IMG/VR virus record: IMGVR_UViG_3300019888_000209
DNA length: 64,000 bases
Source: a virus
Taxonomy: Duplodnaviria; Heunggongvirae; Uroviricota; Caudoviricetes
Strand: one strand, 5' to 3'
Under the pieces are notes generated by a model, which worked only from the letters and a program-made list of their open reading frames with translations, searched no databases and was not told where the DNA came from. The position numbers and the translations under genes are program-made. This document shows, piece after piece, positions 4,587 through 61,103 of this stretch; positions within the stretch are counted from its first letter, which is position 1; every line of letters starts with the position of its first letter.

Positions 4587-4639
4587 CACGCGGCGCATGG
4601 ACAGCGGCGGCGGTCGCGCTTGACGCATTGAACGGCAAC

Positions 4640-4668
4640 GCTTCGCATAGCGAAGCGGCTACAACGCG
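4640..4668. repeat. family-E short form (CGCTTCGCATAGCGAAGCGGCTACA)
   Basis: 8-bp stem, 3-nt loop hairpin; also at ~59445-59475 and ~61012-61040, each translated HSEAAT in frame. Confidence 0.75.
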
Positions 4669-6333: not shown

Positions 6334-6786
6334 TCACCAAATGAGCGACGCTCCCGTGCCCGAACTTTCAGCGTTGGCGCCGGCGCCATCCGCTTCGCGC
6401 AGCAGAGTGTCCCAGCCGTCCAGGTCCGCTTCCATTTCGGCGAGAGCTTCGGCCTCCAATTTCAGAAGCTCGATGTTCGCGAAGCGCGCGGCCTCAGATG
6501 TACTCGAGTTTTCGGCGCTCAGCTCGATGTCGAATTTCTTCGCGGCTTTGCGAATCCGGCCTTCAATCGCGCTCAATTCATCGGCGCTATAACCCTTTCG
6601 ATTTTTCGTCTTGTGAATGTAAGACCAGGCAGCTCTGGTTCTCTTGGCCGTGTCGAGCGGATACTTGTAATTCGCCGGGTCGGCGTATTTCGCTTTGTCG
6701 GTTGGATAACCTTTGGGCGGCGACTTGTGAGTGATCGGCGTCTTGGCATTAGCGATGGCGTCTGACACAGACGCCCTACAAATCAA
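6334..6786 (-). CDS. hypothetical phage protein with a recognisably conserved motif block
   Basis: KYADPANYKYPLDTAKRTRAAWSYIHKTKNRKGYSADELSAIEGRIRKAAKKFDIE looks like a conserved block but I cannot name the family. Confidence 0.4.
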   Translation of the reverse strand: MICRASVSDAIANAKTPITHKSPPKGYPTDKAKYADPANYKYPLDTAKRTRAAWSYIHKTKNRKGYSADELSAIEGRIRKAAKKFDIELSAENSSTSEAARFANIELLKLEAEALAEMEADLDGWDTLLREADGAGANAESSGTGASLIW

Positions 6787-7086: not shown

Positions 7087-9033
7087 ATGGGAAACGCAGG
7101 CGGGATTATCTCACGGGGCGAATCTGTCACGCGCCAGCGTAATGAGGATATGAACCGACACGACCCGATCGCGCCGCACAGCGACGCGGCTACAGGAAAG
7201 GCACAAGGCCAGCGACTTGATGGTGATAATCTCCAATCGGTGCTCGATTCAGGCGCGAACGCCTGGCGCGTTGGCCGGCAACAGTTTTTCACGCCGCACG
7301 AGCTTGGCCGCACGCTGATGTTGCCGTTACCAGCGGCGCGCGAAAGCTTCGTCGATTTGACCATGGGCGCGGGCGCGTTGCTGAGCGCCAGCGGCGCAGC
7401 CAATCTTTACGGAATTGATATCGATTCACGTCTCGCCCGGAAGCCCACTTCTAATAATCTGGAAGCCACGAACCCAGGAAAAAAATCAAATTCATGGCCT
7501 CTCTCCACGGCGAGCCTTCGGCCTGGTTTCCAGATTCAAAATCAAAAATGGCACACGGTGTGCGCTGATCTTACGAGGTTTTATCCGTTGCTGCAGGAGA
7601 TTGATTGGCGCTTCGATCTCTGCGGGTTGAACCCGCCGTTTAGCGTGCGCTGGCATAAGCCGAACCTTGTCGCCCTCATCGATTCGGAGCTTGATACGGT
7701 GCGGCAAACATTCGGGCGCGGGAAGAAACCGACGATCGATTCCGTGTTGGCAACGTTTCTGATCGCGCTCGATCGCATGACCGATCGCGGCGAAGGTTTC
7801 CTGATTTGCACGGCCGCCGCAGCGCAAAAGATCGCAGCCACGCCGGTCGGCAAACACATCTGGCTATGGGTGACTGTCAAAGAAAAATCAGCCACGTCCG
7901 CCAGTCGGACGGACTCGTCCCGTGGCGAGGATGAACACGGATTTTCATTCGACGTGGCAGTGATTTACTTCGCGCGCGCGCATCGCGGACCGGAACCGTT
8001 TCGCCTATCCGTTGAATCTTCTCCTGGATTCCTGGCTTCCAGATTGACTCAATCTCTGGCTCCGATCGCGCGGCAGCGCGCTTTATTGCGCAAAGGTTTG
8101 TCGATCTTTTACCCCGACCATTTTTGCCCGCTTACACGCGAGCTTTGGGATGCGGCGAAGGAGGAATGGCTGCGCGTCAATCGCACAGAGGTTCCCGGCG
8201 ATTACAACATCTGGCTGAGAAAAGACGGGACGATCTGGCGGCACTTGACTCCGTTCCAAACTTGGAGCGGCAAAATCCCGCGCGCCAAAGCGGACTTGTT
8301 GAACCGGCTCGCCGGCCAAACGCCAATGTCGTTGGTAGTGCAAAAGGCAACGCGGCTGGCCTTGCTGGCCGCGATCGGAAAAAATAATCTGGAATCCAAG
8401 AATCCAGGAATTATTTCCGGGAAAAAGGGCTCCTGGTTTCCAGATTCAATTAAATCTTCCCCGTGGCGCGTTGACCCCGATCTTACAGCGGCCGTCGAAA
8501 ACGCGCTCGCCGAATATCACGCGCAACGCGCGCCGTTTTATCCGCTCAACGAAGTGCAACGCCTCGGATATCTGGACGAGGAAGACATGATCAAGTGCAA
8601 ACTCGAAGGTCTAACCGGATTCAAGCCTGGCAAAACCTACCCGCTCAGCTCGGAAACAATCGACGTGGAGCGCCAGGACGAGCGCCTGAATTTACTCGGC
8701 AACATCGAAGAGATAACGCTACAGGGAAAAGAACTCGCCTTTTACATCGAGGACGAGCGCGGCGACAAACACGCTTTCCTGCCCGCCGAAGCCCCCTGCT
8801 CCGCACTGCGTAGCTTCAGCAGCGCGCGTGAAGGAGATTACCACCACGATTTGCACGCGCTCATCCGGTATTTCGAAATTCCAGAAGTGGCGGACGTGGC
8901 GCAGATCGACCCCGACCGATACAATAATTTCGTGAACCAGATCCGCGCAATCGAGTCGGCAGTTAACAACAGAATTTCTCACCACGAAGGACACGAAAGC
9001 CACGAAGCTAAAACAGCAGTAGCCTCTTTCTGA
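7087..9033 (+). CDS. N6-adenine DNA methyltransferase (gamma-class motif order) carrying three in-frame family-A repeat insertions
   Basis: QQFFTP (motif X-like) at aa 65-70, Gly-rich TMGAGALL, then GLNPPFS (motif IV, NPPF) at aa 180-186. In-frame repeat insertions at 7456-7538, 8019-8045 and 8386-8446. C-terminus HHEGHESHEAKT is encoded by CACGAAG heptamers. Confidence 0.7.
   Translation: MGNAGGIISRGESVTRQRNEDMNRHDPIAPHSDAATGKAQGQRLDGDNLQSVLDSGANAWRVGRQQFFTPHELGRTLMLPLPAARESFVDLTMGAGALLSASGAANLYGIDIDSRLARKPTSNNLEATNPGKKSNSWPLSTASLRPGFQIQNQKWHTVCADLTRFYPLLQEIDWRFDLCGLNPPFSVRWHKPNLVALIDSELDTVRQTFGRGKKPTIDSVLATFLIALDRMTDRGEGFLICTAAAAQKIAATPVGKHIWLWVTVKEKSATSASRTDSSRGEDEHGFSFDVAVIYFARAHRGPEPFRLSVESSPGFLASRLTQSLAPIARQRALLRKGLSIFYPDHFCPLTRELWDAAKEEWLRVNRTEVPGDYNIWLRKDGTIWRHLTPFQTWSGKIPRAKADLLNRLAGQTPMSLVVQKATRLALLAAIGKNNLESKNPGIISGKKGSWFPDSIKSSPWRVDPDLTAAVENALAEYHAQRAPFYPLNEVQRLGYLDEEDMIKCKLEGLTGFKPGKTYPLSSETIDVERQDERLNLLGNIEEITLQGKELAFYIEDERGDKHAFLPAEAPCSALRSFSSAREGDYHHDLHALIRYFEIPEVADVAQIDPDRYNNFVNQIRAIESAVNNRISHHEGHESHEAKTAVASF
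7456..7538. repeat. family-A inverted-repeat element (CTGGAAxCCAGGAA...TCCTGGTTTCCAGATT), inside the methyltransferase
   Basis: aatctggaagccacgaacccaggaa...cctggtttccagatt; subtype with internal CTCTCCACGGCGAG. Confidence 0.85.
8019..8045. repeat. family-A half element, inside the methyltransferase
   Basis: ctcctggattcctggcttccagatt. Confidence 0.8.
8386..8446. repeat. family-A element, inside the methyltransferase
   Basis: aatctggaatccaagaatccaggaa...ctcctggtttccagatt. Confidence 0.85.
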
Positions 9034-9081
9034 ATCCGTGTTTCATAAGTTTACCCGCCGTGGCGGGTGTCAATCCGTGGC
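9033..9081. terminator. family-B hairpin (GTTTACCCGCCGTGGCGGGTG) between convergent genes; likely bidirectional terminator
   Basis: Perfect palindrome ACCCGCCGTGGCGGGT immediately after the methyltransferase stop and before the convergent gene 9196-9540. Confidence 0.4.
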
Positions 9082-13027: not shown

Positions 13028-14065
13028 ATGCCACAGAAAAAACGAATCGAAGATATCGCCAAGGGACGCACTAATCTATTCTCGTTGCCCTGGCGAGATT
13101 GCGAGCCCGCGGTAATCGACGACGCCGGCCGTCCCGTAAAACTCAACACCCGCCAAGACTTCGGCAACATAGCCGAGTTTGCCGCGTCGCTGGCGGACGC
13201 AATCAGAGAGCCCGTTCTCGGATACATGGGCGAGAACGGGAAATTCCAGATCACCAACGGCGAGCGTCGCTGGCGCGGCGTCCAATGGCTGGAAAAGCAC
13301 AAGAGCGTAAAAGTTTTACTGCCGTGCGTGCGCGAAAGCCAGGGATATACCGACACCGATCGCAACGTCGACTTGCTCCGGACCAACAACGGCAAGCCGC
13401 TGGAAATGATCGAGCAAGCCGAAGCCATGATCCGCCTTCGCCAAGGCTACGGCGGACAGGCCAGCATGAGTGAGAAAGAGATCGCGCACAAAGCCGGTTG
13501 CTCGCCAACGCACGTGGCGAATTGCCTGGCGCTCCTGAACGACGCCGCGCCGGAAGTGCAAGAGGCAGTGCGCAAGGGCGAAATGACCGGCACGTTGGCA
13601 GTCGATCTCGCGCGCAGCGTGCCCAACAAAGAAAGACAAACAGAGATTTTGGAAAAAGGACGGGAGAAAGCGTTGGAGACGGCGCGCCCTCGCGCCGTAC
13701 GTGGCGAGGGCGCCACGTCTCCAACCAAGAAAACAAAGGTGACCGCGAAACATCTGTCGGTCGCCACCGGAAAGAAAGCGCAGTCGGCCAAGAAGGCGGC
13801 CAAGAAGCAGCACGACACCGACGCGCAGTTTTGGGACCAGAGCCAAGGCAAATTCGTCATCAAGTCGCCCCAGCGCTCCGTAAAGTCGAACAAGGCAGGT
13901 GGAAAATCTGCCGGGCTGGCGATGCTCGAGGAGCTTCTCGACGCCGTGGAGCGCAAAGATTGCGAGGACAAGGCGCGTTACGACACGCTCGAATTTCTCT
14001 ACGACTACAGTGCCGGCCGCCAGAACATGGCGAACGCCACAAAATTCATTTTGGGAATGATCTAA
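13028..14065 (+). CDS. parB: ParB-like partition/nuclease-domain protein with HTH and Lys-rich tail
   Basis: ITNGERRWRG (ParB GERRxRA box), central HTH EIAHKAGCSPTHVANCLALL, K-rich C-terminal segment. Preceded by GGATAAACACCAATG. Confidence 0.7.
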   Translation: MPQKKRIEDIAKGRTNLFSLPWRDCEPAVIDDAGRPVKLNTRQDFGNIAEFAASLADAIREPVLGYMGENGKFQITNGERRWRGVQWLEKHKSVKVLLPCVRESQGYTDTDRNVDLLRTNNGKPLEMIEQAEAMIRLRQGYGGQASMSEKEIAHKAGCSPTHVANCLALLNDAAPEVQEAVRKGEMTGTLAVDLARSVPNKERQTEILEKGREKALETARPRAVRGEGATSPTKKTKVTAKHLSVATGKKAQSAKKAAKKQHDTDAQFWDQSQGKFVIKSPQRSVKSNKAGGKSAGLAMLEELLDAVERKDCEDKARYDTLEFLYDYSAGRQNMANATKFILGMI

Positions 14066-14168: not shown

Positions 14169-14987
14169 ATGAGCGAACGAATCCAGAAACCAACCGAGCA
14201 CGATTGCCCGGCTAAAGTTGTCGGCTACGTGCGCGGCTCCACCGACGAGCAGTTGAACACGCTCGAAGCGCAAGAGAATCAGATCCGCGCGTATTGCGCC
14301 TATAAAAATCTTGACCTGGTGAAGGTCTATATCGAATCGGGCGAATCCGGCAGCGTGAGTTTTTACGAGCGGCCGGTAGCAGCTCAAATGCTGCAAGAGA
14401 TTGGAACGAATCTGGAATCCAGGAAACCAGGAATTTCCTTTCGGGAAGACGGGCTCCTGGCTTCTAGATTAAATAATTCTGCGATTTCCGGCATCGTAAT
14501 CACCAAACTCGACCGCGGTTTCCGTAACGCGCTCGATTGCCTGTTTACTTTGGAGAATCTCACGGCGCGCGGAATCGGGTTGCACTTGCTGGATATTCAG
14601 CTCGACCCCGATACGCCGGTGGGAAAATTACTTCTGACCATGCTCGCCGCGATCGCGGAGTTTGAAAACAAACGGCGCAGCGAACGCCAGGTAGCCGCGT
14701 TCGCCGTGATGAAATCCAAAGGCCAGCGATGCGGGACCATTCCCTACGGCTATCAACTCTCAACTATCAACTCTCAACTTGTCGAAGACCCAGAAGAAAT
14801 GAGGGTTCTTCGACAAATCATTCACTGGATTGAAGTCGAGCACATGGCCGTTTCAAAAATCGCGCGGTTGCTCAACGAAGCCGGCACGCCCACCAAACAA
14901 GGCGGCAAGAAATGGTTCCCGGGGACCGTAAGTAGCGTTTACAAACATCGAAGAATTTCGGATATCGAAAACCGGAAAGCAGCATGA
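14169..14987 (+). CDS. serine recombinase (resolvase/invertase family) with in-frame family-A repeat insertion
   Basis: VGYVRGSTDEQ (catalytic Ser block), ITKLDRGFRN, EFENKRRSERQ. Repeat insertion TNLESRKPGISFREDGLLASRLNNSA at 14409-14470. C-terminus GTIPYGYQL recombinase-like. Confidence 0.75.
   Translation: MSERIQKPTEHDCPAKVVGYVRGSTDEQLNTLEAQENQIRAYCAYKNLDLVKVYIESGESGSVSFYERPVAAQMLQEIGTNLESRKPGISFREDGLLASRLNNSAISGIVITKLDRGFRNALDCLFTLENLTARGIGLHLLDIQLDPDTPVGKLLLTMLAAIAEFENKRRSERQVAAFAVMKSKGQRCGTIPYGYQLSTINSQLVEDPEEMRVLRQIIHWIEVEHMAVSKIARLLNEAGTPTKQGGKKWFPGTVSSVYKHRRISDIENRKAA
14409..14470. repeat. family-A element, inside the serine recombinase
   Basis: aatctggaatccaggaaaccaggaa...ctcctggcttctagatt. 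Confidence 0.85.
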
Positions 14988-15116: not shown

Positions 15117-15434
15117 ATGAAGACGAAGTTATACCGGCAAGGCGATGTGCTGATTGAGCAGGTCGCTAAGTTGCCGAAAAACCTAAAAAGGCAGGCAGGT
15201 GAGAATGGCCGGATCATTCTGGCTCGTGGTGAAGCGACTGGCCATCATCATTCGGTGAATATCGATGCTGCTGATTGGTGGAAATCAGATAGCGGCGAGC
15301 AATTTCTCACAGTCGAGAAACAAGCTGAAGTCACTCACCAGGAACATGACGCGCTGGTCTTGCTACCCGGGAATTACCGGGTGCGTCGACAGCGGGAATA
15401 CACACCAGAAGCGATCCGCAATGTCGCAGACTAA
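15117..15434 (+). CDS. hypothetical small protein
   Basis: MKTKLYRQGDVLIEQV...; composition suggests a beta-rich fold; no named motif. Confidence 0.4.
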   Translation: MKTKLYRQGDVLIEQVAKLPKNLKRQAGENGRIILARGEATGHHHSVNIDAADWWKSDSGEQFLTVEKQAEVTHQEHDALVLLPGNYRVRRQREYTPEAIRNVAD

Positions 15435-16479
15435 AGTAATAGAGAAACTGACGGCCGAGCAGGAGCTCGACCTTTCCGAGACCTATCGGCATGGGGTCGC
15501 AATCGGTCGATCATCGCTGCCGCTCGACCGACCGGCAGTGGCGACTATTATCCGCGAATTGTACGCCAGGATAGGAGAAGCGCCGCCCGTGTTGCTTTTC
15601 TTCACGTCGCCACTGCTCTGTATCTTGGCCTATGGAATTTTGTCCAAGATAGGGTCGCAATTGGGGTCGCAATTGGGGTCGCAATTGGGGTCGCAATTGG
15701 GGTCGCAATTGGAGTCGCAATTGAGGTCGCAATTGGGGTCGCAATTGGAGTCGCAATTGGGGTCGCAATTGGGGTCGCAATTGGGGTCGCAATTGGGGTC
15801 GCAATTGAGGTCGCAATTGAGGTCGCAATTGAGGTCGCAATTGAGGAACTATTTTGCAGGCAATCAGTGGTGTGCCTGGCAAGTGTTTTACGATTTTTGC
15901 CGGAGAATCGGTGTCCGATTTTCCGGCGAGCAAAATGAGCTATTGGATCTGTGGCTTGAGGAGGGGCGCCAATGTCATTGGTGGTGGTCGTATAAAGGCA
16001 TTGTCCTTGCCTCAGAACGACACACCTCGCTCAACTTGGACGATCGTGGCCGATTGCATTCAGTAACAGGACCAGCGCTTTCCTACGCAGATGGATGGAG
16101 TGTTTATGCGGTCCATGGCGTAAGAATCGAAGCAGAGCTCATCGAACATCCGGAGAAAATCACGGTTAAGAAAATCGAGAACGAAACTAATGCTGAGATT
16201 CGCCGGGTAAAAATCGAGCTTTATGGTCAGCAGCGTTATCTGTTGGATTCCGGAGCGAAAGAGATCCATACCGACGATTATGGGACGCTTTACCGAAAGG
16301 ATTTATCTGGCGATGAGCCAATCGTGATGGTGAAAGTGGTTAATTCCACGCCAGAACCAGATGGAACATTCAGGGATTATTTTCTTCGCGTCCCGCCGGG
16401 AATTACGAAAGCGCGCGAGGCCGTGGCATGGACATTTGATATTGAGTCGAATGCCTATGCCTTGGCTAAACAGACATGA
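15421..16479 (+). CDS. (GSQL)n tandem-repeat protein with conserved C-terminal domain
   Basis: ATG at 15421 overlaps the previous stop. N-terminal domain, then about 16 copies of GSQL/ESQL/RSQL encoded by a 12-bp tandem repeat, then a Trp-rich C-terminal domain (CHWWWSYKGIVLASERH...). Confidence 0.5.
   Translation: MSQTKVIEKLTAEQELDLSETYRHGVAIGRSSLPLDRPAVATIIRELYARIGEAPPVLLFFTSPLLCILAYGILSKIGSQLGSQLGSQLGSQLGSQLESQLRSQLGSQLESQLGSQLGSQLGSQLGSQLRSQLRSQLRSQLRNYFAGNQWCAWQVFYDFCRRIGVRFSGEQNELLDLWLEEGRQCHWWWSYKGIVLASERHTSLNLDDRGRLHSVTGPALSYADGWSVYAVHGVRIEAELIEHPEKITVKKIENETNAEIRRVKIELYGQQRYLLDSGAKEIHTDDYGTLYRKDLSGDEPIVMVKVVNSTPEPDGTFRDYFLRVPPGITKAREAVAWTFDIESNAYALAKQT
15652..15846. repeat. 12-bp tandem repeat (GGGTCGCAATTG)n, about 16 units with G/A and G/T variants
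   Basis: Read directly: gggtcgcaattg, gagtcgcaattg, gaggtcgcaattg units. Confidence 0.9.
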
Positions 16480-16961: not shown

Positions 16962-17092
16962 GTCTTCGCGTGTGCACCTTTTAATGAGTCGATCGCATTG
17001 CGCTTCCGAGCAGAAGTCTTTGAACCGCCGGCCTCGGAAATCCGTGGCGACAAGATCAAACTGCGAAGGATGAAACGGCGGGCAGGCCGACT

Positions 17093-18073
17093 ATGAGCGC
17101 GAACAGCACCATCGAGTGGACCGATCACACATGGAACCCATGGGAAGGGTGCACCAAGAAATCGCCCGGGTGCAAGAATTGCTACGCCGAAGCGCGCAAC
17201 AAACGGTTCGCCGGCGCGAATTGGGGAAAGGGCAAGCCCAGGCGGCGCACCAGAGAAGCGAACTGGCGGATGCCGCTGCGATGGAATCTGGAAACCAGGA
17301 AAACAGGAAAACGATTTAAGATTTTTTTGTCGCTATGCGACTGGCTGGACGAAGAAGTGCCGATCGAATGGCTGTCTGATTTCCTGGCCTTGATCTATGC
17401 GACGCCGAATCTCATCTGGCAATTGCTCACCAAATCGCCGGAGAATTGGCGCACGCGGCTTACGGAAACTTTGCACGTGCTCGTCCGCCAAGAAAATTTT
17501 ACCGCGGCGGTCGAGGTTCGGGCCTGGCTGCAACAGGAACCGCCGCTTGCACCGCAAAACGTCTGGCTGGGCGTGAGCGTGGAGGATCAGGAGCGCGCGG
17601 ATGAACGCATGCCGGTGCTGTTAAACATTCCGGCGAAACTGCACTTTCTTAGCTGCGAGCCCCTGCTCGAGCCCATCGACCTAGAAAACTATTTGCCCTG
17701 TAGCCGTCGCCCTGTGGGCGACGCGCGCGCTTCGCACAGCGAAGCGGCTACAGTCGATTGGGTAATCGCCGGCGGCGAATCCGGTCCTGGTGCGCGGCCG
17801 TGTGATATCCAGTGGATTCGCGAAATCATCGCGCAATGCGAGCTGGCCAAGGTGCCGGTGTTCGTGAAGCAGCTTGGCGCGTTTCCGTTTGATTTTGACG
17901 GGCGAGAAGAGGTTTGGTTGAAGACGCTGCCTCCGCAATACCGCGACGGAACGCGATACGCGATCGCCGAGCGTCGAATCAAAGACCGCAAAGGCGGCGA
18001 CCCAGCAGAATGGCCGGAAGACTTGCGCATCAGGCAATTCCCATCCGTGAAATCCGTGGTTGTTCCAAAATGA
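17093..18073 (+). CDS. phage Gp37/Gp68-family protein (DUF5131-like) with in-frame family-A and family-E insertions
   Basis: N-terminus IEWTDHTWNPWEGCTKKSPGCKNCYA, later WLGVSVEDQ, SCEPLLEPI, DWVIAGGESGP. Insertions WNLETRKTGKRFKIF (17285-17312) and CSRRPVGDARASHSEAAT (17699-17752). Confidence 0.7.
   Translation: MSANSTIEWTDHTWNPWEGCTKKSPGCKNCYAEARNKRFAGANWGKGKPRRRTREANWRMPLRWNLETRKTGKRFKIFLSLCDWLDEEVPIEWLSDFLALIYATPNLIWQLLTKSPENWRTRLTETLHVLVRQENFTAAVEVRAWLQQEPPLAPQNVWLGVSVEDQERADERMPVLLNIPAKLHFLSCEPLLEPIDLENYLPCSRRPVGDARASHSEAATVDWVIAGGESGPGARPCDIQWIREIIAQCELAKVPVFVKQLGAFPFDFDGREEVWLKTLPPQYRDGTRYAIAERRIKDRKGGDPAEWPEDLRIRQFPSVKSVVVPK
17285..17312. repeat. family-A half element, inside Gp37/Gp68
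   Basis: aatctggaaaccaggaaaacaggaaaac. Confidence 0.8.
17699..17752. repeat. family-E nested palindrome (GTAGCCGTCGCCC..GGGCGACG..CGCTTCGCACAGCGAAGCGGCTACAG), in frame in Gp37/Gp68
   Basis: Near-identical copy at 45935-46010; translated CSRRPVGDARASHSEAAT. Confidence 0.85.
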
Positions 18074-18498
18074 GCGAGTCAATTGTCATTAAATACGGCG
18101 GACGCCAATACTGGGCGCGCAGAATTTTTACAGAAGATAACCCGCCACGGCGGGTAAACTGCGGACCGGATCTTGCCCGCCGTGGCGGGTTGCCTTCTGT
18201 TAAATCTCTTCAATCCGTTAGCATTGGGGTAGCATTTCTCAAGCCTGTTCATCACCAACGCCACGTGATTATGCCAGATGAAGAATCGGCGCGCCGCTGG
18301 CTAAGCGACAACGGCTTGCGCAAGAGCAAAGCCAAAAAGCTGCTGTCAGCCGCTTTACGCAACGAGGGCGATTACGCAGATCCATTGCACCCGCACAGAG
18401 TCAGGGAGCCACGGATGGACACGGATTTACCCCGTGAGATACAGCCCCAGGACGTGGGTCACGCCCACAATGTTATCTCACGGGGTAAACTGCTATGA
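18070..18498 (+). CDS. hypothetical protein containing in-frame family-B hairpin
   Basis: ATGA overlap with the Gp37/68 stop. NPPRRVNCGPDLARRGG is translated from the ACCCGCCGTGGCGGGT hairpin pair. Confidence 0.25.
   Translation: MSESIVIKYGGRQYWARRIFTEDNPPRRVNCGPDLARRGGLPSVKSLQSVSIGVAFLKPVHHQRHVIMPDEESARRWLSDNGLRKSKAKKLLSAALRNEGDYADPLHPHRVREPRMDTDLPREIQPQDVGHAHNVISRGKLL
18143..18195. repeat. family-B hairpin pair (CCCGCCACGGCGGGT / CCCGCCGTGGCGGGT)
   Basis: Two adjacent palindromes; other copies at 9033-9081, 31455-31508, 38286-38350, 59748-59790. Confidence 0.8.
18425..18490. repeat. family-D inverted repeat (TTTACCCCGTGAGATA...TTATCTCACGGGGTAAA)
   Basis: Other copies at ~6225, ~6815, ~7105, 12945-13005, ~31830, ~31900, 40722-40775. 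Confidence 0.8.
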
Positions 18499-19150
18499 AA
18501 GGCAAAACAGCACACCGCGCGCGCTTGAGCGCCACTACAGCGCCGCGCAACGGCGCGCCGCCCTCAAACCCGGCAGGACAGCACCGCACTCGACGCACAG
18601 CGGCCAACGTCGCGCCACGGTTCGGGCGTTACGCGCGTCGTCAGATCGTAAGTAAGCAACGGCGCCACATCATGCGAAAAAAGGCAGACGGCTTCTGCAT
18701 CTACGGCGGCTGCCACGAGAAAGTTGATGGCAACTATCGCGAGGCCCACAGGCGCAAGGTCAACGTGCAAACCCGCGAGCGGCTGCATCGCCTTGGCCTG
18801 GCGCACCGGCGCAACCTGAACTCCGCCAGCTACCATTATGGCAACGGGAGCGCGCTGCGATGAGCTTTCCAAAGCCAGGCCGCTGTTTCAGCCGACACGC
18901 AGAAAAGCAGATCGTCCGGATACGTCGAATGAAAGCCCAGATCCGCGCACAACTGCAAGAACTCGAACAGCGCGAACGGTTGGCTGGGCTGGCACGGAAA
19001 ATGAAGCAAGACGTGGCCGCCAATTTGAACGGAAAAGAAAGACAAGATTCGAACCAGGAGTAGAATTTCCACCACGAAGTTCACGAAGAACACGAAGATA
19101 TTTTCAGTAACTTCGTGGAGCTTCGTGATCTTCGTGGTAAAAGAGAATTC

Positions 19151-19489
19151 ATGACAAAGTTACTTTGCACCCTCGCTATAGCCACTGTAGCCACCGGCCT
19201 GTGGCCGGTCCACGCCGATGACAAGACAATCCGCGACGAGACCGGCCGCATCATTGCCACCATCTCAGACACGGCCAACGGCCGCACCGTTCGCGACAGC
19301 GACGGGAAGATCATCGGGCGCATCGAGGACTCAGCCACCGGTCGCGTAGTACGCGATGAAAACGGGAAGATCATTGGCCGAATTTCCACCACGAAGGACA
19401 CGAAAGACACGAAGCAGGGGAATTACTCACAAAGTTACCCCTGCACTGTTGCAAGGGGTTGCGGTGCGGGCAGCGCGACGGCGTGGTAG
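19151..19489 (+). CDS. secreted small protein with three ~17-aa repeats
   Basis: Signal peptide MTKLLCTLAIATVATGLWPVHA; repeats TGRIIATISD / NGRTVRDSDGKIIGRIED / TGRVVRDENGKIIGRIS. Confidence 0.45.
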   Translation: MTKLLCTLAIATVATGLWPVHADDKTIRDETGRIIATISDTANGRTVRDSDGKIIGRIEDSATGRVVRDENGKIIGRISTTKDTKDTKQGNYSQSYPCTVARGCGAGSATAW

Positions 19490-20225: not shown

Positions 20226-21140
20226 ATGAAAAACATATGTGAATTCAAAACACTTGCTGAATTTCTCGAATACTTCAAAGACGAGGAAACATGCCTCAGG
20301 CATTTCGCGGCAATCCGTTTCCGTAATGGCGAGTATTGCCCGCACTGCGGACATACCGAGATTTACACGTTCAGCGACGGTAAGCGTTATCGCTGCGCAA
20401 AGTGCAAACAGGATTTCACGATCAAGACGGGCACGGTGTTTGGGGAAAGCAAGTTGCCGCTCAAAAAATGGTTCATTGCCATTTATTTACTTTCCACGAC
20501 GAGCAAGGGGATTTCCTCGGTTCAACTCGCCAAGCACGTGGGCGTGACGCAAAAGACGGGATGGTTCATGGATCACCGGCTCCGCAAGGCGATGAAACAA
20601 AACAAGGGGCAATTGTTCGGCACGGTGGAAGCTGACGAGACATTCGTCGGCGGATTGGAGAAAAATAAACACAAGTCGAAGCGGCAGCACATCGGAACGG
20701 GCGGAACGGGCAAGACGCCAGTGTTTGCAATGAAGAGCCGTGACGGAGAACTCCGAGCGCGAGTCGTGCAAACTGTGCGCTCCGAAGAATTGCAACATCA
20801 CATTCGAGATACGGTTACTAATGGTGCGACGGTTTACACGGACAACTGGGTTGGTTACAGAGGATTGAAAGGCTACGTGCACACGGCCATCAATCATAGC
20901 AACGGTGATTATGTTCAGGGTGATGCCCACACCAACAGCATAGAGAGCTTTTGGGCGCTCTTTAAGCGCGGCTATCATGGTGTTTACCACCAGATGAGCC
21001 GGAAGCATTTGCAGCGTTACGTTGACGAATTCACTTTTCGTTTCAATCGACGCAAGGTCGAAATGCAGGACATGTTCTCCGACATGGTTGAGAACGTCAC
21101 TGAGAGCAAGAAGCTGCCGTACAAGGAACTCATCGCATGA
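20226..21140 (+). CDS. IS1595-family (ISXO2-like) transposase
   Basis: N-terminal zinc ribbon CPHCGH...CAKC, then VEADETFVGG, GKTPVF, INHSNGDYV..HTNSIESFWALFKRGYHGVYH..KHLQRYVDEFTFRFNRR. Confidence 0.8.
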   Translation: MKNICEFKTLAEFLEYFKDEETCLRHFAAIRFRNGEYCPHCGHTEIYTFSDGKRYRCAKCKQDFTIKTGTVFGESKLPLKKWFIAIYLLSTTSKGISSVQLAKHVGVTQKTGWFMDHRLRKAMKQNKGQLFGTVEADETFVGGLEKNKHKSKRQHIGTGGTGKTPVFAMKSRDGELRARVVQTVRSEELQHHIRDTVTNGATVYTDNWVGYRGLKGYVHTAINHSNGDYVQGDAHTNSIESFWALFKRGYHGVYHQMSRKHLQRYVDEFTFRFNRRKVEMQDMFSDMVENVTESKKLPYKELIA

Positions 21141-22018: not shown

Positions 22019-23071
22019 ATGCGGGAGTGGATTTCAGACCTTATCCAATTCCTCAAATCAGTCATTCTTCGATGGTTCAACGTTTTCGCCGGAGCGTTCG
22101 TTACAACGGTATGGACGATTTACCAACAAATCACCGGGAGGCCGCTCCCGATGACAGCTTTTTGGTCGCTAGTTGGGGTTTGCATTTCGATTGCTGTGTT
22201 TCAGGCGTGGCGTGAAGAACACAAAAAAGCCCTGGCGCGGGTTGGGCTAATTGGCCGCATTCTTTCTACCGTGTATTTCGAGGGCACGGATGGGCGTGTC
22301 GGAATTGTCGTAAAGCTTCAAATAACTAACAGAGGCGAGCCAACTGTAGTCGATGGGTGGGGGATGACTTTCGACTTAAATGGTTTCAATGCGTTACCAG
22401 CCACGCATCCCTTAGACGGAAAGATCGACATCAATGATAACAAGGGTAAGGTCGTTAGACTTAAGTCGTCAGACCTACTGCACGAGAAAGTCGGCATTCA
22501 CCAGATAGCTAAAGGAGGGCGAGTTTCAGGGTTTCTTGTCTTTCTAACCAAGGGCATTTCTTACGAACGACTGGCCTCCGCGCGCCCGAATGTCACTGTT
22601 CTTTTCCGTGACGCTTTCGGACAGGAATATACGGCTATGAACCAAGGTACCGGTATAGCCGCGCCGATGCATGAACCTGGGATCGACGACCCATTTGCGC
22701 ATATTTTAATCAGGCAAGCCAAGGAAGCAAAAGAGGGTCAAAAGCTCCTGTACTCAGTTGTCGAGAAGATAAGCCACGGTAGCCGTCCAATAATGGCGTT
22801 AATCGAGTTAGGCGTCGCTGACGAGTTAGACACGAACGAGGATGTCCTGAATTTGTGCCGCCAATTAGTTACAGATGGACATGGAGACCCATTCGAGCAC
22901 CTTGGGAACAGGTATCCGCCTCCAGTGAGGCAGGAATTTTTGAAGGAGGCTCGGCGCAAAAATTTGAAGTTCCCGAACGCAATATCGGAGGTGGAATTTG
23001 TGTACGACGGATTAAGGAAAGACCTCGCGCTAGCGAAAGAGAGAATGGAGGCGCAAAAAGCAGAGGATTAG
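22019..23071 (+). CDS. membrane protein with two N-terminal TM helices and a large soluble domain; function unknown
   Basis: TM segments FAGAFVTTVWTIY and AFWSLVGVCISIAVF; the C-terminus overlaps the end of the second transposase gene. Confidence 0.45.
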   Translation: MREWISDLIQFLKSVILRWFNVFAGAFVTTVWTIYQQITGRPLPMTAFWSLVGVCISIAVFQAWREEHKKALARVGLIGRILSTVYFEGTDGRVGIVVKLQITNRGEPTVVDGWGMTFDLNGFNALPATHPLDGKIDINDNKGKVVRLKSSDLLHEKVGIHQIAKGGRVSGFLVFLTKGISYERLASARPNVTVLFRDAFGQEYTAMNQGTGIAAPMHEPGIDDPFAHILIRQAKEAKEGQKLLYSVVEKISHGSRPIMALIELGVADELDTNEDVLNLCRQLVTDGHGDPFEHLGNRYPPPVRQEFLKEARRKNLKFPNAISEVEFVYDGLRKDLALAKERMEAQKAED

Positions 23072-23985
23072 GCAGCTTTCGTAAGCTCCGCGTATGGCAA
23101 CTTTGCTGCGTTCACCAACTTTGTGAGAGTATCCCTAAAGATGTATTCGTTTTTACGGTTGTTAAAGCGATGCTCCAATTCATCCAGATAGGCGTCCAGA
23201 TGTTTGATCGAGATTTTGTGATAGGTGCCAACCACGGAGCGTTTCAAGAGGCTCCAAACGCTTTCAACGTTGTTAGTGTGAACCTCGCCATTTACCCATT
23301 CTTCTGCCGCGTGCCTCACTGTCTCATGCCGCGTGTCGGCATCCGCTATGCCAAGATAGGCTTTAGCTTCGTCTGTGTAGATCGCTTCACATTTCGGGTC
23401 TGTCGTTTCGTGAATGAATTTGTGAAGCCAGTAGTGACTAGGCGATTTAATAACCTTGAGACGTATCTGTCCCTCACGTTCAACCGCTCCAACAACTACC
23501 GCCTTGTTGCCTTTGTAGCCATGTCCCCTTCCATGAAACCGTCCGCCAATATAGGTCTCATCGACTTCTACAATGCCTTTCGAAAGATCGACGCTAACTT
23601 CTCGCATTGCAGCACGGATACGATGACAGAGATACCAAGCCGTCTCATAAGAGACGTTCAGCGTTCGCTTCATTTGAAGTGCGGAAATTCCTTTTTTGGA
23701 TTCCGTCATCAAATAGGTTGCCAAAAACCACTTGGTCAGCGGAAGATGCGTGTCGTGAAAGATGGAGCCGCTTGTTACAGAAAACTGGTATCGACAAGCG
23801 TTGCAGTCATATTGGTCGCGCTCCGTGATTGTCGAAACGCTCTTAGACTGGCAACGCGGGCAAGTAAGACCGTTAGGCCAGCGCAGTTCAGCAAGGCGAG
23901 TTCTGCATTTCTCATCGCTTCCAAACTCTGCAATGAGCTTCGGAAGATTCATTTCTGCTTTGAAGGATTTGGTTCGTTTTTTCAT
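23068..23985 (-). CDS. IS1595-family transposase (divergent second copy, opposite orientation)
   Basis: CPRCQS...CNAC zinc ribbon, VEVDETYIGG, HTNNVESVWSLLKR, KHLDAYLDELEHRFNNR. TTGACA-N16-TAAATT promoter-like element upstream at ~24110-24150. Confidence 0.8.
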   Translation of the reverse strand: MKKRTKSFKAEMNLPKLIAEFGSDEKCRTRLAELRWPNGLTCPRCQSKSVSTITERDQYDCNACRYQFSVTSGSIFHDTHLPLTKWFLATYLMTESKKGISALQMKRTLNVSYETAWYLCHRIRAAMREVSVDLSKGIVEVDETYIGGRFHGRGHGYKGNKAVVVGAVEREGQIRLKVIKSPSHYWLHKFIHETTDPKCEAIYTDEAKAYLGIADADTRHETVRHAAEEWVNGEVHTNNVESVWSLLKRSVVGTYHKISIKHLDAYLDELEHRFNNRKNEYIFRDTLTKLVNAAKLPYAELTKAA

Positions 23986-24667: not shown

Positions 24668-24760
24668 TTAAAGCAGCCACGGATTAACACAGATGAAACA
24701 CAGATTCAGAAGTCTTATCCGTGAGAATCCGTGTCAATCTGTGGCTAGATTCTGACTGCC
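24668..24760. repeat. CACGGAT/ATCCGTG heptamer hairpin cluster
   Basis: agccacggattaacacagatgaaacacagattc...gaatccgtgtcaatctgtggct; similar at 24465-24500, 34985-35030, 43855-43890, 45035-45070, 59205-59245. Confidence 0.8.
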
Positions 24761-24776
24761 CCCACTTCGTGGTGGA

Positions 24777-26882: not shown

Positions 26883-26894
26883 AAATTTAATTCA

Positions 26895-45946: not shown

Positions 45947-46010
45947 ATTGTAGCCGTCGCCCTATGGGCGACGCGCGCGCTTCGCACAGCGAAGCGGCTA
46001 CAGAATCCGT
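45935..46010. repeat. family-E element plus flanking CACGGAT heptamers
   Basis: gtagccgtcgccctatgggcgacgcgcgcgcttcgcacagcgaagcggctacag. Confidence 0.85.
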
Positions 46011-59245: not shown

Positions 59246-59659
59246 TCACGTCGGCTGCGTATCGGTCTTGCAATCGCAGTTCAGGCATTGCACCGACACG
59301 GGCGACGCCTTACCTCTCAACACCCAAACGAGCTGAGGCCACTGGCAATTCGCGCAATTGTAAAGCTTCGCGTAATACATCGACGCCACATCAGCATCAG
59401 GCACCGTCCTTAGAACCGGCTCAGCCGGGATCGGTGATCCCGGTTTCCCTGTAGCCGCTTCGCTGTGCGAAGCGTCCCCCGATTCAACCATCTTCCCCGC
59501 CTGTTCCAGCGTGCTCTTGAGTATGAACTGCATTCCGGCCAGCATTCGATCGGCCCACTGATCAACAATGTCGTCGCCGTGCCCCACCTTGCCGAAGTCA
59601 ATCTTAACCTGTTGTGTCGTGGACCGACTAACAGTGGCAGATACGACAACCTGGTTCAT
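59246..59659 (-). CDS. hypothetical protein upstream of terL (small-terminase position); contains in-frame HSEAAT element
   Basis: Position only; Cys-rich C-terminus. Confidence 0.25.
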   Translation of the reverse strand: MNQVVVSATVSRSTTQQVKIDFGKVGHGDDIVDQWADRMLAGMQFILKSTLEQAGKMVESGDASHSEAATGKPGSPIPAEPVLRTVPDADVASMYYAKLYNCANCQWPQLVWVLRGKASPVSVQCLNCDCKTDTQPT

Positions 59660-59813: not shown

Positions 59814-61103
59814 TCATGTGAAGAACGCCGCTGTTTCGTCCGACCTGTCCGCCATAGCCTTGGCGAAGGCGGGAGCATTGACATCCCTTGGCCCTTCGAT
59901 TGGCCCCGCCGGACTCGCCGCGGCTTGCTCGGTATCGTCTAAAATATCTTCGGTAACTTCGTCCCTACTCACCTCGCCCTCGTCTGACCGCGCTTCGGCC
60001 AGTCCCTGGGCGAATCCGCTTGCCAGCTTCCGGCAGGCGCGACGGCTTTGTTTGGTGGGCGACCAATCCTTTTCCCATAAATGTTCTTTCGCCTCCATCG
60101 CCATCAGCACCAGATCGGGGCGATACTGCGCAGGTCGCAGTCTGGTCGGCGTCGTAAGCAGCTCCACTTCCGCCGCGGTAAACAGTCCGTCGATTAGTTC
60201 GCGATCGTTTTCAGAATAATACTGCTGTATCGCCTGTAGCAGCGTGGAAAGGCAATCATTAAACGCCATCTTTTTCCGAAGCGTGCCACCCTGCATGTCC
60301 GCCAGGCCAAGCGTTTTCATGCTCGAATTCAACGCATCCTGCGCATCGCGCCTCTCTTTAAGCAGGCTTAATAGCTGAACATTGTCTTTCTCAACGCCTT
60401 GATGCTTCATCAGCTTTTCGCGAATCTCCTTGCGCAGTTCGCGAATTGTCGGGTCGAGGATAAAAAAGATCGCCGTTTCCTGCTGGATCAAGCTGCGCGC
60501 AGCCGCGCGTAGCCGATCGTCTTCCAGCCACGGCTGTAATTCCAGGCAACGCCCCGCGATATAGGCGCGTTCATCGGCGTTTTCAATGTCCGCGAAACCG
60601 TTCTCGCGAAGCAATTGGTCGGCAGTTTCCTGGTCAGGCGCCGGACGCGCGCGAATGTTCTCGCTTGATTTCGTTTCAAGCTGCGACCGCCGCCAATACG
60701 ATTTCGCGCCTTCGATATAGGCGTCGATCTCGCGCGGCTCGACGCTACGTTTCTCCGCTAGTTCCGCGATCGTCCAAACCCGCATATCGTCCGGATCGTC
60801 CACGCCGTAAAGCGGAGCGTTTCCGTAGATTCGGCAGATAATCGTCCAGGCCGGTTCCTGGCCGCACAACGCCTCGTGCCATTTCGACATGGCCTCTTTC
60901 TGTAGGGCGGCCGTGTCAGACGCCAATTCGAAGTCCGCGACCAGGTCCGCGCCACGCTCAGCCCGCCACTTGTCGCCGTTAGGCGCGTCGTACTCCACGA
61001 ACCCTGGCTCTGTAGCCGCCTCGCTGTGTCGAGGCGTTTCCTCACGCGCCTCAAAGTCGAGTTCGTCCTTCATTTTTTGAGCCAATCGATGACTCGTCGC
61101 CAA
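59814..61103 (-). CDS. hypothetical protein; contains in-frame HSEAAT element
   Basis: 429-aa ORF. Confidence 0.35.
   Translation of the reverse strand: MATSHRLAQKMKDELDFEAREETPRHSEAATEPGFVEYDAPNGDKWRAERGADLVADFELASDTAALQKEAMSKWHEALCGQEPAWTIICRIYGNAPLYGVDDPDDMRVWTIAELAEKRSVEPREIDAYIEGAKSYWRRSQLETKSSENIRARPAPDQETADQLLRENGFADIENADERAYIAGRCLELQPWLEDDRLRAAARSLIQQETAIFFILDPTIRELRKEIREKLMKHQGVEKDNVQLLSLLKERRDAQDALNSSMKTLGLADMQGGTLRKKMAFNDCLSTLLQAIQQYYSENDRELIDGLFTAAEVELLTTPTRLRPAQYRPDLVLMAMEAKEHLWEKDWSPTKQSRRACRKLASGFAQGLAEARSDEGEVSRDEVTEDILDDTEQAAASPAGPIEGPRDVNAPAFAKAMADRSDETAAFFT

What the first reader, a model, noticed from the sequence alone, without database searches (positions are those of the whole stretch)
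17699..17752. Second in-frame palindrome family encoding the peptide HSEAAT in several unrelated proteins
The hairpin CGCTTCGCACAGCGAAGCGGCTACAG (8-bp stem) occurs at ~4640, 17699-17752, 45935-46010, ~59445 and ~61012. In the plus-sense reading it is translated as (A)SHSEAAT inside ORFs 4583-4852, Gp37/Gp68, 59246-59659 and 59814-61103. Antisense it forms the N-terminus of the candidate endolysin ORF. The long form adds a nested GTAGCCGTCGCCC/GGGCGACGGCTAC palindrome. The element is ORF-compatible in both orientations.
Basis: seen in the sequence. Interest (0 to 1): 0.7.

Follow-up and report, generated by a model that had tools for sequence, protein, structure and literature searches.

The report
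Host REP hairpins inside phage-like genes
The repeated hairpin is an ordinary bacterial REP element (a GTAG-tagged palindrome mobilised by a RAYT transposase) typical of soil Verrucomicrobia. It has colonised a phage-like region, where a few copies survive inside genes because they happen to keep the reading frame.

Summary
The window has 10 units of one hairpin family, against about 0.5 expected by chance. Each unit is (C/T)T-GTAG-C, an 8-bp stem, a TGT/TAT loop, and the complementary stem. The two "long forms" (17698-17753 and 45948-46003) are inverted doublets of two such units.

This is the anatomy of a GTAG-tagged REP. The same 24-mer occurs in more than 120 genome stretches, and 119 of the 120 fetched are Verrucomicrobiota (Chthoniobacterales, Udaeobacter, Spartobacteria). 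There it is mostly paired and mostly extragenic: about 4-5% of copies lie inside genes, against 40% of random positions. Stems covary strongly under a constant head and loop.

Two host loci carry a REP-associated tyrosine transposase gene (NCBIfam NF047646, 111 bits) flanked by these very elements.

In the window, the copies in the DUF5131 loop and in the N-terminal extension of ORF 7087-9033 are truly translated. Others sit at gene edges or in doubtful ORFs.

The HSEAAT peptide is a by-product of which frames and sites tolerate an insertion. It is not a coding module. Intragenic GTAG REPs are already described, most abundantly in the verrucomicrobium Opitutus terrae.

Verdict: a new member of a known kind. 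The only mild surprise is REPs at roughly host-like density in phage-like DNA.

The parts
17698..17723 (+). REP unit, B-type stem: CT-GTAG-C-CGTCGCCC-TGT-GGGCGACG. Left half of the inverted doublet inside the DUF5131 gene.
   Evidence: Read as PCSRRPVGD in ORF 17093-18073.
17728..17753 (-). REP unit, A-type stem: CT-GTAG-C-CGCTTCGC-TGT-GCGAAGCG on the - strand. Right half of the doublet, read on the + strand as ASHSEAAT.
   Evidence: The whole doublet folds as a three-way junction, -24.6 kcal/mol, z = -5.45. Both flanks score as coding in the same frame, +14.0 and +10.0. It lies in the hypervariable loop between EPLLEPIDL and VDWVIAGGESG. It is identical to the host doublets at L061 2735-2788 and L113 5769-5822.
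45948..46003 (.). Second copy of the 54-56 nt inverted doublet (B unit 45948-45973 on +, A unit 45978-46003 on -). It is nested in the centre of a CACGGAT-type inverted repeat and lies within the first 27 codons of ORF 45292-46029 (-).
   Evidence: (D19, 98% identical to 17699-17753). No coding signal upstream. A GTG start followed by a signal-peptide-like KIRVHLWLLLFLILVC lies just after the doublet. This copy is therefore probably in the 5' leader and not translated.
59449..59474 (+). Single A-type REP unit, head on the + strand. Read on the - strand as ASHSEAAT in the middle of ORF 59246-59659 (137 aa).
   Evidence: The ORF is called in ENA and Logan assemblies. The flank 5' of the REP within the gene scores as coding (+11.9); the 3' flank is open but scores weakly (+2.1). 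No homologues exist to test for an empty site.
61010..61036 (+). Diverged single REP unit: CT-GTAG-C-CGCCTCG-CTGTGT-CGAGGCG. Read as PRHSEAAT at residues 13-21 of the called gene 61073..59814 (-).
   Evidence: Hairpin -8.1 kcal/mol, z = -3.8.
7170..7195 (-). Single REP unit: CT-GTAG-C-CGCGTCGC-TGT-GCGGCGCG. Its T.G wobble pairs only on the head strand. Read as APHSDAAT in the N-terminal extension of ORF 7087-9033.
   Evidence: head strand -8.8 kcal/mol; opposite strand -7.1 with an internal mismatch. Homologues start right after it, and there is no start codon between the REP and invariant Q50, so it must be translated. The 68%-identical homologue on L128 has three REPs of other stems at the same site.
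4639..4664 (-). Single A-type REP unit with TT head and TAT loop, inside the small called ORF 4583-4852.
   Evidence: The ORF has negative coding scores, so this copy may be extragenic.
19185..19209 (+). REP unit with another stem: CT-GTAG-CC-ACCGGCC-TGT-GGCCGGT. Head on the sense strand, read as TVATGLWPV in the signal peptide of gene 19151-19489.
   Evidence: Hairpin -8.0 kcal/mol. Related ACGGCCC stems are common in host loci.
6757..6781 (-). REP unit TT-GTAG-GGCGTCTG-TGT-CAGACGCC, overlapping the called GTG start of gene 6334-6768 (-).
   Evidence: The same GGCGTCTG stem occurs 6 times in host loci.

Best explanation
The element is a GTAG-tagged repetitive extragenic palindrome (REP). Its long form is an inverted head-out REP doublet, like a REPIN or BIME. 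It belongs to a REP/RAYT system of soil Verrucomicrobiota (order Chthoniobacterales).

Mechanism, inferred from the studied REPtrons of E. coli, Stenotrophomonas and Marinomonas: on single-stranded DNA the head strand folds into an 8-bp hairpin. A host HUH/Y1 REP-associated tyrosine transposase (RAYT, also TnpA-REP) recognises the hairpin together with the 5' GTAG 'guide'. It then cuts at a nearby CT dinucleotide. This lets single REPs or whole doublets be copied to new sites without target duplications.

The window carries no RAYT motif, so its 10 copies are non-autonomous passengers that would depend on a chromosomal RAYT acting in trans. The window is a phage-like, gene-dense region with little intergenic space. 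Copies therefore persist at gene edges, in N-terminal tails, in a signal peptide and in one hypervariable loop. They persist only where the reading frame is kept and the encoded peptide is harmless.

ASHSEAAT is simply the small, polar reading of the anti-head strand. The TAG in the head closes one frame of the head-sense orientation.

Shown here: the anatomy, the stem covariation, the lineage distribution, the extragenic bias in hosts, the RAYT linkage in hosts, and translation of two window copies. Inferred: RAYT-mediated mobility, and selection as the cause of the frame bias.
For: - Anatomy. All 10 window units have a (C/T)TGTAG head, a 7-8 bp perfect stem and a TGT/TAT loop (one has a 6-nt loop). 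Simulation expects 0.48.
- Structure. 76 distinct units were picked by head and loop position only. 85.4% of cells pair, against 62.3% in shuffles; 140 cells change on both sides, against 48; the covariation score is 0.575, against 0.18 shuffled and 0.09-0.16 in slid registers. Hairpins and the doublet fold far better than shuffles.
- Lineage. 119 of the 120 loci fetched are Verrucomicrobiota. At least 8 loci come from one MAG (BP_767).
- Host organisation. 254 of 335 units are paired. Doublets cluster at 74-82 nt with variable spacers, and some are 52-54 nt. 54-nt doublets identical to the window's occur in two different MAGs.
- Extragenic bias. 4 of 113 doublets and 4 of 75 singles are intragenic, against 801 of 2000 random positions.
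- RAYT. L049 1193-1657 and its L040 homologue match Pfam Y1_Tnp. The L049 protein also matches NCBIfam NF047646 'REP-associated tyrosine transposase' (111.2 bits, cutoff 80), and its best solved-structure match is 4ER8 TnpArep (E = 1e-9). Both genes are flanked on both sides by A-type REPs or doublets.
- Filled versus empty site. The L040 RAYT has an in-frame 8-codon segment, encoded by a B-type REP, that is absent from the 71%-identical L049 protein.
- Literature. The GTAG head with a stem and 2-3 nt loop, head-out dimers 1-5 or 20-100 bp apart, and intragenic in-frame REPs (most numerous in the verrucomicrobium O. terrae, often at N-termini) are described in PMC3733652. CT cleavage, the GTAG guide, and a group-3 REP of 8 bp plus a 3-nt loop are in PMC8266576.
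Against: - No RAYT motif was found in the window. The rest of its 324.7-kb contig could not be read, so a cognate RAYT in the same genome is assumed, not shown.
- In the window most copies overlap predicted ORFs, the opposite of the host pattern.
- The two arms of the doublet have different stems, so it is not a textbook REPIN made of two near-identical REPs.
- Host spacers are highly variable, which could mean that pairs form by independent insertions and do not move as units.
- Mobility itself was not observed.
- The host loci were selected for containing the A-type 24-mer, so copy numbers and proportions are biased.
Confidence: 0.87

Rival explanations
1. This is a dedicated, ORF-compatible palindromic mobile element, like the Rickettsia RPEs or PARCELs. 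Its niche is insertion into coding sequence, and it adds a defined peptide module (HSEAAT) to proteins.
For: In the window, 4 singles and the doublet are all read in the frame GCT ACA (..AAT) in five different ORFs. The related locus L128 reads three REPs of other stems in that same frame. The 54-nt doublet is a multiple of 3 and has an open frame in each orientation. Doublet lengths in hosts are modestly enriched for multiples of 3 (48 of 113, from the lengths).
Against: Over 90% of copies in the host lineage are extragenic, far below random expectation. Long host doublets often begin the spacer with TGA, which closes further frames. Other readings exist: TVATGLWPV at 19185 and ASPTGRRLQK in the L040 RAYT. 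The elements flank a RAYT gene. The number of independent window events is small (4-5), and one or two of the ORFs are doubtful.
Confidence: 0.05
2. The hairpins are primarily functional RNA or DNA signals of the phage-like element itself, such as mRNA-stabilising stem-loops, terminators or protein-binding sites. They would be kept by selection and only resemble host REPs.
For: REPs are reported to act as mRNA stabilisers or terminators and are often transcribed (PMC3733652). The G.T wobble at 7170 pairs only on one strand. Copies at 6757, 45948 and 4639 lie at gene boundaries.
Against: No T-run follows any hairpin, as the sequence shows directly, so they are not intrinsic terminators. Identical 24-56 nt sequences occur in many unrelated chromosomal loci of many species, which a phage-specific signal would not explain. 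A secondary regulatory role for individual copies is not excluded.
Confidence: 0.06
3. The copies entered the region not by RAYT-mediated insertion but by recombination or gene-fragment exchange with the host chromosome. Alternatively, the region is simply old chromosomal DNA.
For: Copper-resistance genes lie directly right of the window, so the region is integrated in, or contiguous with, non-phage DNA. Two IS1595 genes and many other repeats suggest long residence. Copies range from consensus-identical to diverged.
Against: Flanks of the copies share no similarity with each other or with host copies, so only the element itself is shared. The same site in a related element holds different REPs, which looks like local insertion turnover. 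This rival concerns the route of arrival only. It does not change what the element is.
Confidence: 0.1

Closest known systems
GTAG-tagged REPs of REPtrons, especially the group-3 type (Stenotrophomonas maltophilia REPSm: GTAG + 8-bp perfect palindrome + 3-nt loop, cleaved by its TnpA-REP at CT; PMC8266576)
   Same: A 5' GTAG tetranucleotide, an 8-bp perfect stem, a 3-nt loop with conserved sequence, and a CT dinucleotide immediately 5' of GTAG. A RAYT gene is flanked by the repeats in host genomes.
   Different: A different phylum and different stem and loop sequences. There is one extra base (C) between GTAG and the stem. Several stem sub-families share one head and loop. Biochemistry is untested. 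The copies described here lie in phage-like DNA.
Intragenic GTAG REPs of Opitutus terrae (Verrucomicrobia) and other species (Di Nocera et al. 2013, PMC3733652)
   Same: The same phylum. Singles and dimers are inserted in frame in unrelated genes, dimers encode about 20 residues, and many sit at N-termini where translation is uncertain.
   Different: A different order (Chthoniobacterales) and family sequence. The decorated genes here are phage-like (DUF5131/Gp37-Gp68, a methyltransferase-like protein, ORFans), not DNA-repair genes.
REPINs (Bertels & Rainey 2011; bioRxiv 10.1101/2021.07.10.451892)
   Same: Two REPs in inverted orientation with a spacer, linked to a single RAYT. Identical 54-nt doublets at two window sites and in two other genomes suggest that the doublet moves as a unit.
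   Different: The two arms carry different stems (A: CGCTTCGC; B: CGTCGCCC or CGCCGCCC). The fold is therefore a three-way junction, not one long hairpin. Host spacers are highly variable. [quoted passage not shown]
E. coli BIMEs (mosaics of Y and Z REPs)
   Same: Two distinct REP types alternate in inverted orientation with a linker (own knowledge of BIME structure; the BIME is mentioned as a substrate in PMC8266576).
   Different: No conserved linker motifs or IHF site are evident. E. coli REPs have bulged stems, whereas these stems are perfect.
Rickettsia palindromic elements (RPE)
   Same: Palindromic repeats found in frame inside functional genes.
   Different: The original RPE-1 elements are described as longer palindromic insertions; their size of about 100-150 bp is from my own knowledge. 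No dedicated transposase is known for the CGTC-type REPs to which RPE-4 and RPE-6 were assigned. Here the family is mostly extragenic and linked to a RAYT.

Membership tests
GTAG-tagged REP (REPtron REP) | Conserved GTAG (or GTGG) tetranucleotide at the 5' end of the palindrome | tested here: met
   All 10 window units and 248-257 host units carry TGTAG(C). Columns 2-7 are invariant in alignment A2, partly by construction, because the units were selected on the head.
GTAG-tagged REP (REPtron REP) | Short (20-40 nt) stem-loop with a 6-13 bp stem and a short loop | tested here: met
   8-bp stem, 3-nt loop, 24-26 nt in total. DNA folds of -8 to -10.6 kcal/mol, z from -2.5 to -6.
GTAG-tagged REP (REPtron REP) | Sub-families that differ by complementary stem changes (the structure is conserved, not the sequence) | tested here: met
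   All 8 pairs show changes on both sides. 140 cells change on both sides, against 47.9 in shuffles. The score is 0.575, against 0.09-0.16 in slid registers.
GTAG-tagged REP (REPtron REP) | High copy number, dispersed over the chromosomes of a lineage | tested here: met
119 of 120 are Verrucomicrobiota MAGs, with up to 8 loci from one MAG. Copy number per genome was not measurable.
GTAG-tagged REP (REPtron REP) | Predominantly extragenic location | tested here: met
   In host loci, 3.5% of doublets and 5% of singles are intragenic, against 40% of random positions. This does not hold inside the window itself, where most copies overlap predicted ORFs.
GTAG-tagged REP (REPtron REP) | A RAYT / TnpA-REP gene flanked by the REPs | tested here: met
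   L049 and L040: Pfam PF01797 for both. For the L049 protein also NF047646 at 111 bits against a cutoff of 80 and best PDB match 4ER8. REPs lie on both sides of both genes. Shown in host-lineage genomes, not in the window's own contig.
GTAG-tagged REP (REPtron REP) | Strand-specific binding and cleavage by RAYT at a CT dinucleotide next to the REP | not testable with these tools
   CT directly precedes GTAG in 7 of 10 window units (TT in 3) and in most host units. Cleavage needs biochemistry.
REPIN | Two near-identical REPs in inverted orientation that fold into one long hairpin and replicate as a unit | tested here: inconclusive
   Inverted pairing is the rule: 254 of 335 units. Identical 54-nt doublets recur. 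But the two arms have different stems, the fold is a three-way junction, and host spacers are not conserved.
Rickettsia-type RPE / coding palindromic element | Element found mainly in frame within protein-coding genes | tested here: not met
   Host copies are strongly depleted from genes.
Intrinsic terminator | GC-rich hairpin followed by a T-run | tested here: not met
   No T-run follows any window or host copy, as the sequences show.
Conserved protein motif of DUF5131 | The peptide is shared by homologues regardless of the DNA palindrome | tested here: not met
   The segment lies in a hypervariable loop. None of 119 other homologues contains SEAAT or CSR[RF].

The most novel reading that the evidence does not exclude
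REPs are not only relics in old integrated DNA. They actively colonise a family of Chthoniobacterales phage-like elements: the window and its relative L128 carry different REP sets at the same site. They are retained in one benign reading frame. A mobile element could therefore carry REPs or REPINs between hosts, against the current view that REPIN-RAYT systems are strictly vertical and avoid horizontally transferred DNA.
Probability: 0.12. Interest if true: 0.5.

Novelty: new member of a known kind. Interest (0 to 1): 0.3.

Why it matters
There are three practical points.

- The repeat is a lineage marker. It assigns this otherwise unannotatable phage-like region to a Chthoniobacterales/Udaeobacter-type host. 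Most of its large proteins have no Pfam or PHROG match, and no relative turned up in the phage-record or IMG/VR searches.
- It warns annotators that peptides such as ASHSEAAT or CSRRPVGD in Verrucomicrobiota proteins are REP read-through, not domains. It also warns that assemblies break at these repeats: one Logan contig ends inside the doublet.
- In Pseudomonas fluorescens Pf-5 the predicted phage regions are REP-free, and RAYT genes are said to be absent from horizontally mobile elements. REPs at roughly host-like density in phage-like DNA therefore point to long residence, or to REP spread into mobile DNA. That would be a modest extension of REPIN biology if confirmed.

Tried and rejected
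- Megablast of window 17000-19000 against 50,697 phage records found no match.
- A search for relatives of the 596-aa protein (57375-59165) in IMG/VR found none, so no empty-site comparison with related phages was possible.
- Homologues of ORF 59246-59659: only the protein itself.
The second attempt found no candidates, not even the window's own protein. That tool cannot address how common the peptide is.
- Gene-call look-up for 43902-45092: not on record.
- Chance: rejected.
- Conserved protein motif: rejected.
- Terminator: rejected, because no T-run follows the hairpins.
- MITE with terminal inverted repeats and target-site duplications: no duplications appear at the four identical doublets, which fits IS200/IS605-like single-strand transposition better (sequences).
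- tRNA-like cloverleaf for the long host doublets: considered because some show an outer stem, two hairpins and a central TGAGAG..CTCTCA stem. Dropped because the central part is not conserved in sequence or length.
- A strict 'one frame only' rule: rejected after finding TVATGLWPV at 19185 and ASPTGRRLQK in the L040 RAYT.
Full report
**1. The observation**

The 26-mer CGCTTCGCACAGCGAAGCGGCTACAG occurs exactly at 17728-17753, 45978-46003 and, reverse-complemented, at 59449-59474. Copies with 2-3 mismatches lie at 4639-4664 and 7170-7195. Shuffles give none. The two long forms, 17699-17753 and 45949-46003, are 98% identical.

**2. Anatomy**

Read on the strand that carries GTAG, every copy has the same plan. 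It is (C/T)T, then GTAG, then C, then an 8-bp perfect stem, then a TGT or TAT loop, then the complementary stem.

A scan for that plan finds 10 units in the window:
- 4639-4664 (-)
- 6757-6781 (-)
- 7170-7195 (-)
- 17698-17723 (+)
- 17728-17753 (-)
- 19185-19209 (+)
- 45948-45973 (+)
- 45978-46003 (-)
- 59449-59474 (+)
- 61010-61036 (+)

200 first-order Markov simulations of the window gave a mean of 0.48 and a maximum of 3.

Stems differ between units (CGCTTCGC, CGTCGCCC, CGCGTCGC, ACCGGCC, GGCGTCTG, CGCCTCG), while head and loop stay constant.

The 'long form' is two such units head-out, separated by GCGCG. Their CTGTAGCC heads pair with each other, so either strand folds into a three-way junction (-24.6 and -25.0 kcal/mol as DNA, z about -5.4). 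At 7170 the stem holds a T.G wobble that pairs only on the head strand.

**3. Where else it occurs**

An exact scan for GCTTCGCAYAGCGAAGCGGCTACA gave two IMG/VR contigs. Of the 120 loci fetched, 119 are Verrucomicrobiota MAGs labelled Chthoniobacterales, Candidatus Udaeobacter, Spartobacteria, Verrucomicrobiae or just Verrucomicrobiota/Verrucomicrobia. One is labelled Nitrospirota.

In those 0.86 Mb I found 335 units, 254 of them paired with an inverted partner. The commonest form is TCTT-CTGTAGCC-hairpin A, then a 20-30 nt variable spacer (often TGAGAG...CTCTCA), then hairpin B-GGCTACAG-AAGA, 74-82 nt overall. Short 52-54 nt doublets also occur. Two of them (L061, L113, from different MAGs) are identical to the window's doublet.

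I also picked units only by head and loop position, which gave 76 distinct sequences. In these, 85.4% of stem cells pair, against 62.3% in shuffles. 140 cells change on both sides, against 48. The covariation score is 0.575, against 0.09-0.16 for slid registers. The hairpin is thus conserved as a structure under a fixed head and loop.

**4. Coding context in the home lineage**

I trained a codon log-likelihood model on long ORFs of the host loci. It classes 4 of 113 doublets and 4 of 75 singles as lying inside a continuous coding frame. For random positions in the same loci the figure is 801 of 2000. The family is therefore strongly extragenic in its hosts.

**5. The transposase**

A motif scan of all loci found two ORFs, L049 1193-1657 and one on the minus strand of L040.
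- Both match Pfam Y1_Tnp.
- The L049 protein matches NCBIfam NF047646 'REP-associated tyrosine transposase' at 111.2 bits, against a cutoff of 80.
- The best solved-structure match of the L049 protein is 4ER8, E. coli TnpA-REP bound to a REP (E = 1e-9).

Both genes are flanked on both sides by A-type units or doublets, which is the REPtron arrangement.

The L040 gene itself contains an in-frame B-type unit (encoding ASPTGRRLQK). This coincides with an 8-residue insertion relative to the 71%-identical L049 protein, a natural filled/empty pair.

No such gene motif was found in the window.

**6. Coding context in the window**

The window is a phage-like region. It holds:
- a 1415-aa tape-measure protein (PF10145);
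- DUF5131/Gp37-Gp68;
- a Gp80-family protein;
- ParB, a resolvase and an SNF2 helicase;
- two IS1595 transposases;
- many ORFans.

The region lies on contigs of 124.8 kb (ENA) and 324.7 kb (JGI). Copper-resistance genes lie immediately to its right.

The status of each copy is as follows.

| Copy | Context | Status |
|---|---|---|
| 17698-17753 (doublet) | DUF5131; both flanks code in one frame; hypervariable loop between two invariant blocks; none of 119 other homologues has the peptide | certainly translated |
| 7170-7195 | N-terminal extension of ORF 7087-9033; see below | translated |
| 59449-59474 | middle of the called 137-aa ORF 59246-59659 | probably intragenic; no homologues to test |
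| 61010-61036 | codons 13-21 of gene 61073..59814 | near the N-terminus |
| 19185-19209 | signal peptide of gene 19151-19489 | near the N-terminus |
| 6757-6781 | overlaps a called start codon | gene edge |
| 4639-4664 | ORF 4583-4852, which has negative coding scores | doubtful ORF |
| 45948-46003 (doublet) | centre of another inverted repeat, just upstream of a GTG plus signal-peptide-like start | probably untranslated |

For 7170-7195 the argument runs like this. ORF 7087-9033 has 413 homologues. Most of those aligned begin at MKxQGQ, which aligns with window residue 37, immediately after the REP. No start codon exists between the REP and the invariant Q50. So the REP must be translated.

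The closest homologue (68% identical, locus L128, same neighbouring SNF2 gene) has the same MNRHDP leader. At the same point it carries three REPs with other stems, all read in the same GCT-ACA frame.

**7. Why HSEAAT**

On the head strand, one frame is closed by TAG. On the opposite strand all three frames are open. They read ASHSEAAT, RFAQRSGY and LRTAKRLQ, as the sequence shows directly.

That amounts to only about 4-5 independent events.

Other readings also exist: TVATGLWPV at 19185 and ASPTGRRLQK in the L040 RAYT. The most economical reading is a selection filter on which insertions survive in gene-dense DNA, not a coding function. This step is inference.

**8. Comparison with what is known**

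- Di Nocera et al. 2013 (PMC3733652) define GTAG-tagged REPs as a terminal GTAG with a 6-13 bp stem and a 2-3 nt loop. They describe sub-families with complementary stem changes, and head-out dimers 1-5 or 20-100 bp apart. They report GTAG REPs in the PVC superphylum. They also report intragenic, in-frame REPs, most numerous in the verrucomicrobium Opitutus terrae and often at N-termini where translation is uncertain.
- Corneloup et al. 2021 (PMC8266576) show that TnpA-REP binds the folded single-stranded REP but not its complement, and cuts at CT. GTAG acts as a guide. A group-3 REP is a 23-nt unit with an 8-bp perfect palindrome and a 3-nt loop.
- The present family matches these points and is a new family member in Chthoniobacterales.

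It departs from the textbook in two ways. The doublet arms have different stems, which is BIME-like rather than REPIN-like. And the copies lie in phage-like DNA. [quoted passage not shown] The mix of consensus-identical and diverged copies, the two IS1595 genes and the many other repeats suggest long residence in a REP-bearing chromosome.

**9. Verdict**

The element is a GTAG REP / inverted REP doublet of a Chthoniobacterales RAYT system (confidence about 0.87). It is a new member of a known kind, of modest interest.

Noticed in passing
window 7452-7535, 8012-8058, 8382-8452, 10530-10631, 14405-14476, 26889-26986, 31239-31327, 31406-31453, 36555-36594, 37224-37318, 39135-39223, 39693-39778, 45101-45141, 47676-47769, 57318-57375: A large family of inverted repeats built from triple octamers: AATCTGGAAnCCAGGAAnCCAGGAA ... 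TTCCTGGnTTCCTGGnTTCCAGATT. Some enclose a conserved core (CTCTCCACGGCGAG). They are almost absent from the 120 Chthoniobacterales host loci (1 hit), so they are specific to this genome or element. Their nature is unknown.
   Followed up: partly
window 7087-9033 (residues ~123-152, ~300-315, ~431-456, C-terminal ~630-648): Arms of the CCAGGAA-type and CACGAAG-type repeats lie in frame inside this conserved methyltransferase-like gene (NLEATNPGKK...LRPGFQIQ, SSPGFLASRL, NNLESKNPG...SWFPDSI, ISHHEGHESHEAK). In the alignment with homologues they fall in segments that most homologues lack. A second kind of repeat is therefore also inserted in frame.
   Followed up: partly
window 8973-9007, 19063-19145, 19380-19414, 32912-33013, 33412-33452, 38249-38283, 53354-53394; and 24414-24494, 24675-24764, 34971-35026, 43802-43882, 45030-45071, 45905-45946, 46004-46046, 59205-59242: Two further triple-repeat families, CCACGAAGnnCACGAAGnnCACGAAG and CCACGGATnnACACGGATnnnCACGGAT. 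They mostly occur as inverted pairs around intergenic regions. The REP doublet at 45948-46003 is nested exactly in the centre of one of them.
   Followed up: no
window 9051-9075, 18121-18209, 31476-31500, 38317-38341, 59753-59777: A hairpin TTTACCCGCCGTGGCGGGTG, about 10 matches to the core ACCCGCC(R)(Y)GGCGGGT on both strands and sometimes within a conserved 55-nt unit. None was found in the host loci sampled.
   Followed up: no
window 15654-15855: About 17 tandem copies of the 12-nt unit GGGTCGCAATTG inside ORF 15265-16479 (DUF6745). This gives an in-frame 4-residue repeat.
   Followed up: no
window 48409-48606 and 49099-49602: 66-nt tandem repeats and a 60-nt periodic repeat inside the 868-aa ORF 48180-50786, which has a weak DUF2341 hit.
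   Followed up: no
window 13431-13460, 43970-43999, 59844-59872: Another palindrome family, CCGCCTTCGCCAAGGCTACGGCGGACAGG. One copy encodes the C-terminal AFAKAMADR of ORF 59814-61103.
   Followed up: no
window 59421-59439: A headless 8-bp hairpin, CCGGGATC-GGT-GATCCCGG, lies 10 nt from the REP at 59449 and is read as KPGSPIPA in the same ORF. It resembles a GTAG-headed sub-family (CTGTAGCCGGCATCGGTGATGCCGG) seen three times in L128.
   Followed up: partly
window 20226-21140 (+) and 23068-23985 (-): Two IS1595-family transposase genes in opposite orientation inside the phage-like region.
   Followed up: no
L124 1-5447 (64.2-69.7 kb on the window's coordinate scale, just right of the window): A CsoR-type metal repressor, a heavy-metal P-type ATPase, and HMBD and DUF2127 genes directly abut the phage-like genes. 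The region is therefore integrated in, or contiguous with, non-phage DNA.
   Followed up: partly
L040, reverse strand 3811-3836: A host RAYT gene itself carries an in-frame REP, giving an 8-codon insertion relative to the L049 RAYT. The transposase gene is decorated by its own substrate.
   Followed up: yes
L128 3030-3115: A related element from another metagenome has three tandem, same-orientation GTAG REPs with different stems (one of them degenerate) at the site where the window has one. A partial duplicate of the downstream flank lies between them, so this looks like a REP insertion hot spot.
   Followed up: partly
L127 (Logan contig), whose end corresponds to window 45994: A short-read assembly contig terminates inside the REP doublet. 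These repeats break assemblies.
   Followed up: no
L093: The only one of the 120 genome loci not labelled Verrucomicrobiota is a contig of a 'Nitrospirota' MAG. It may be mis-binned.
   Followed up: no
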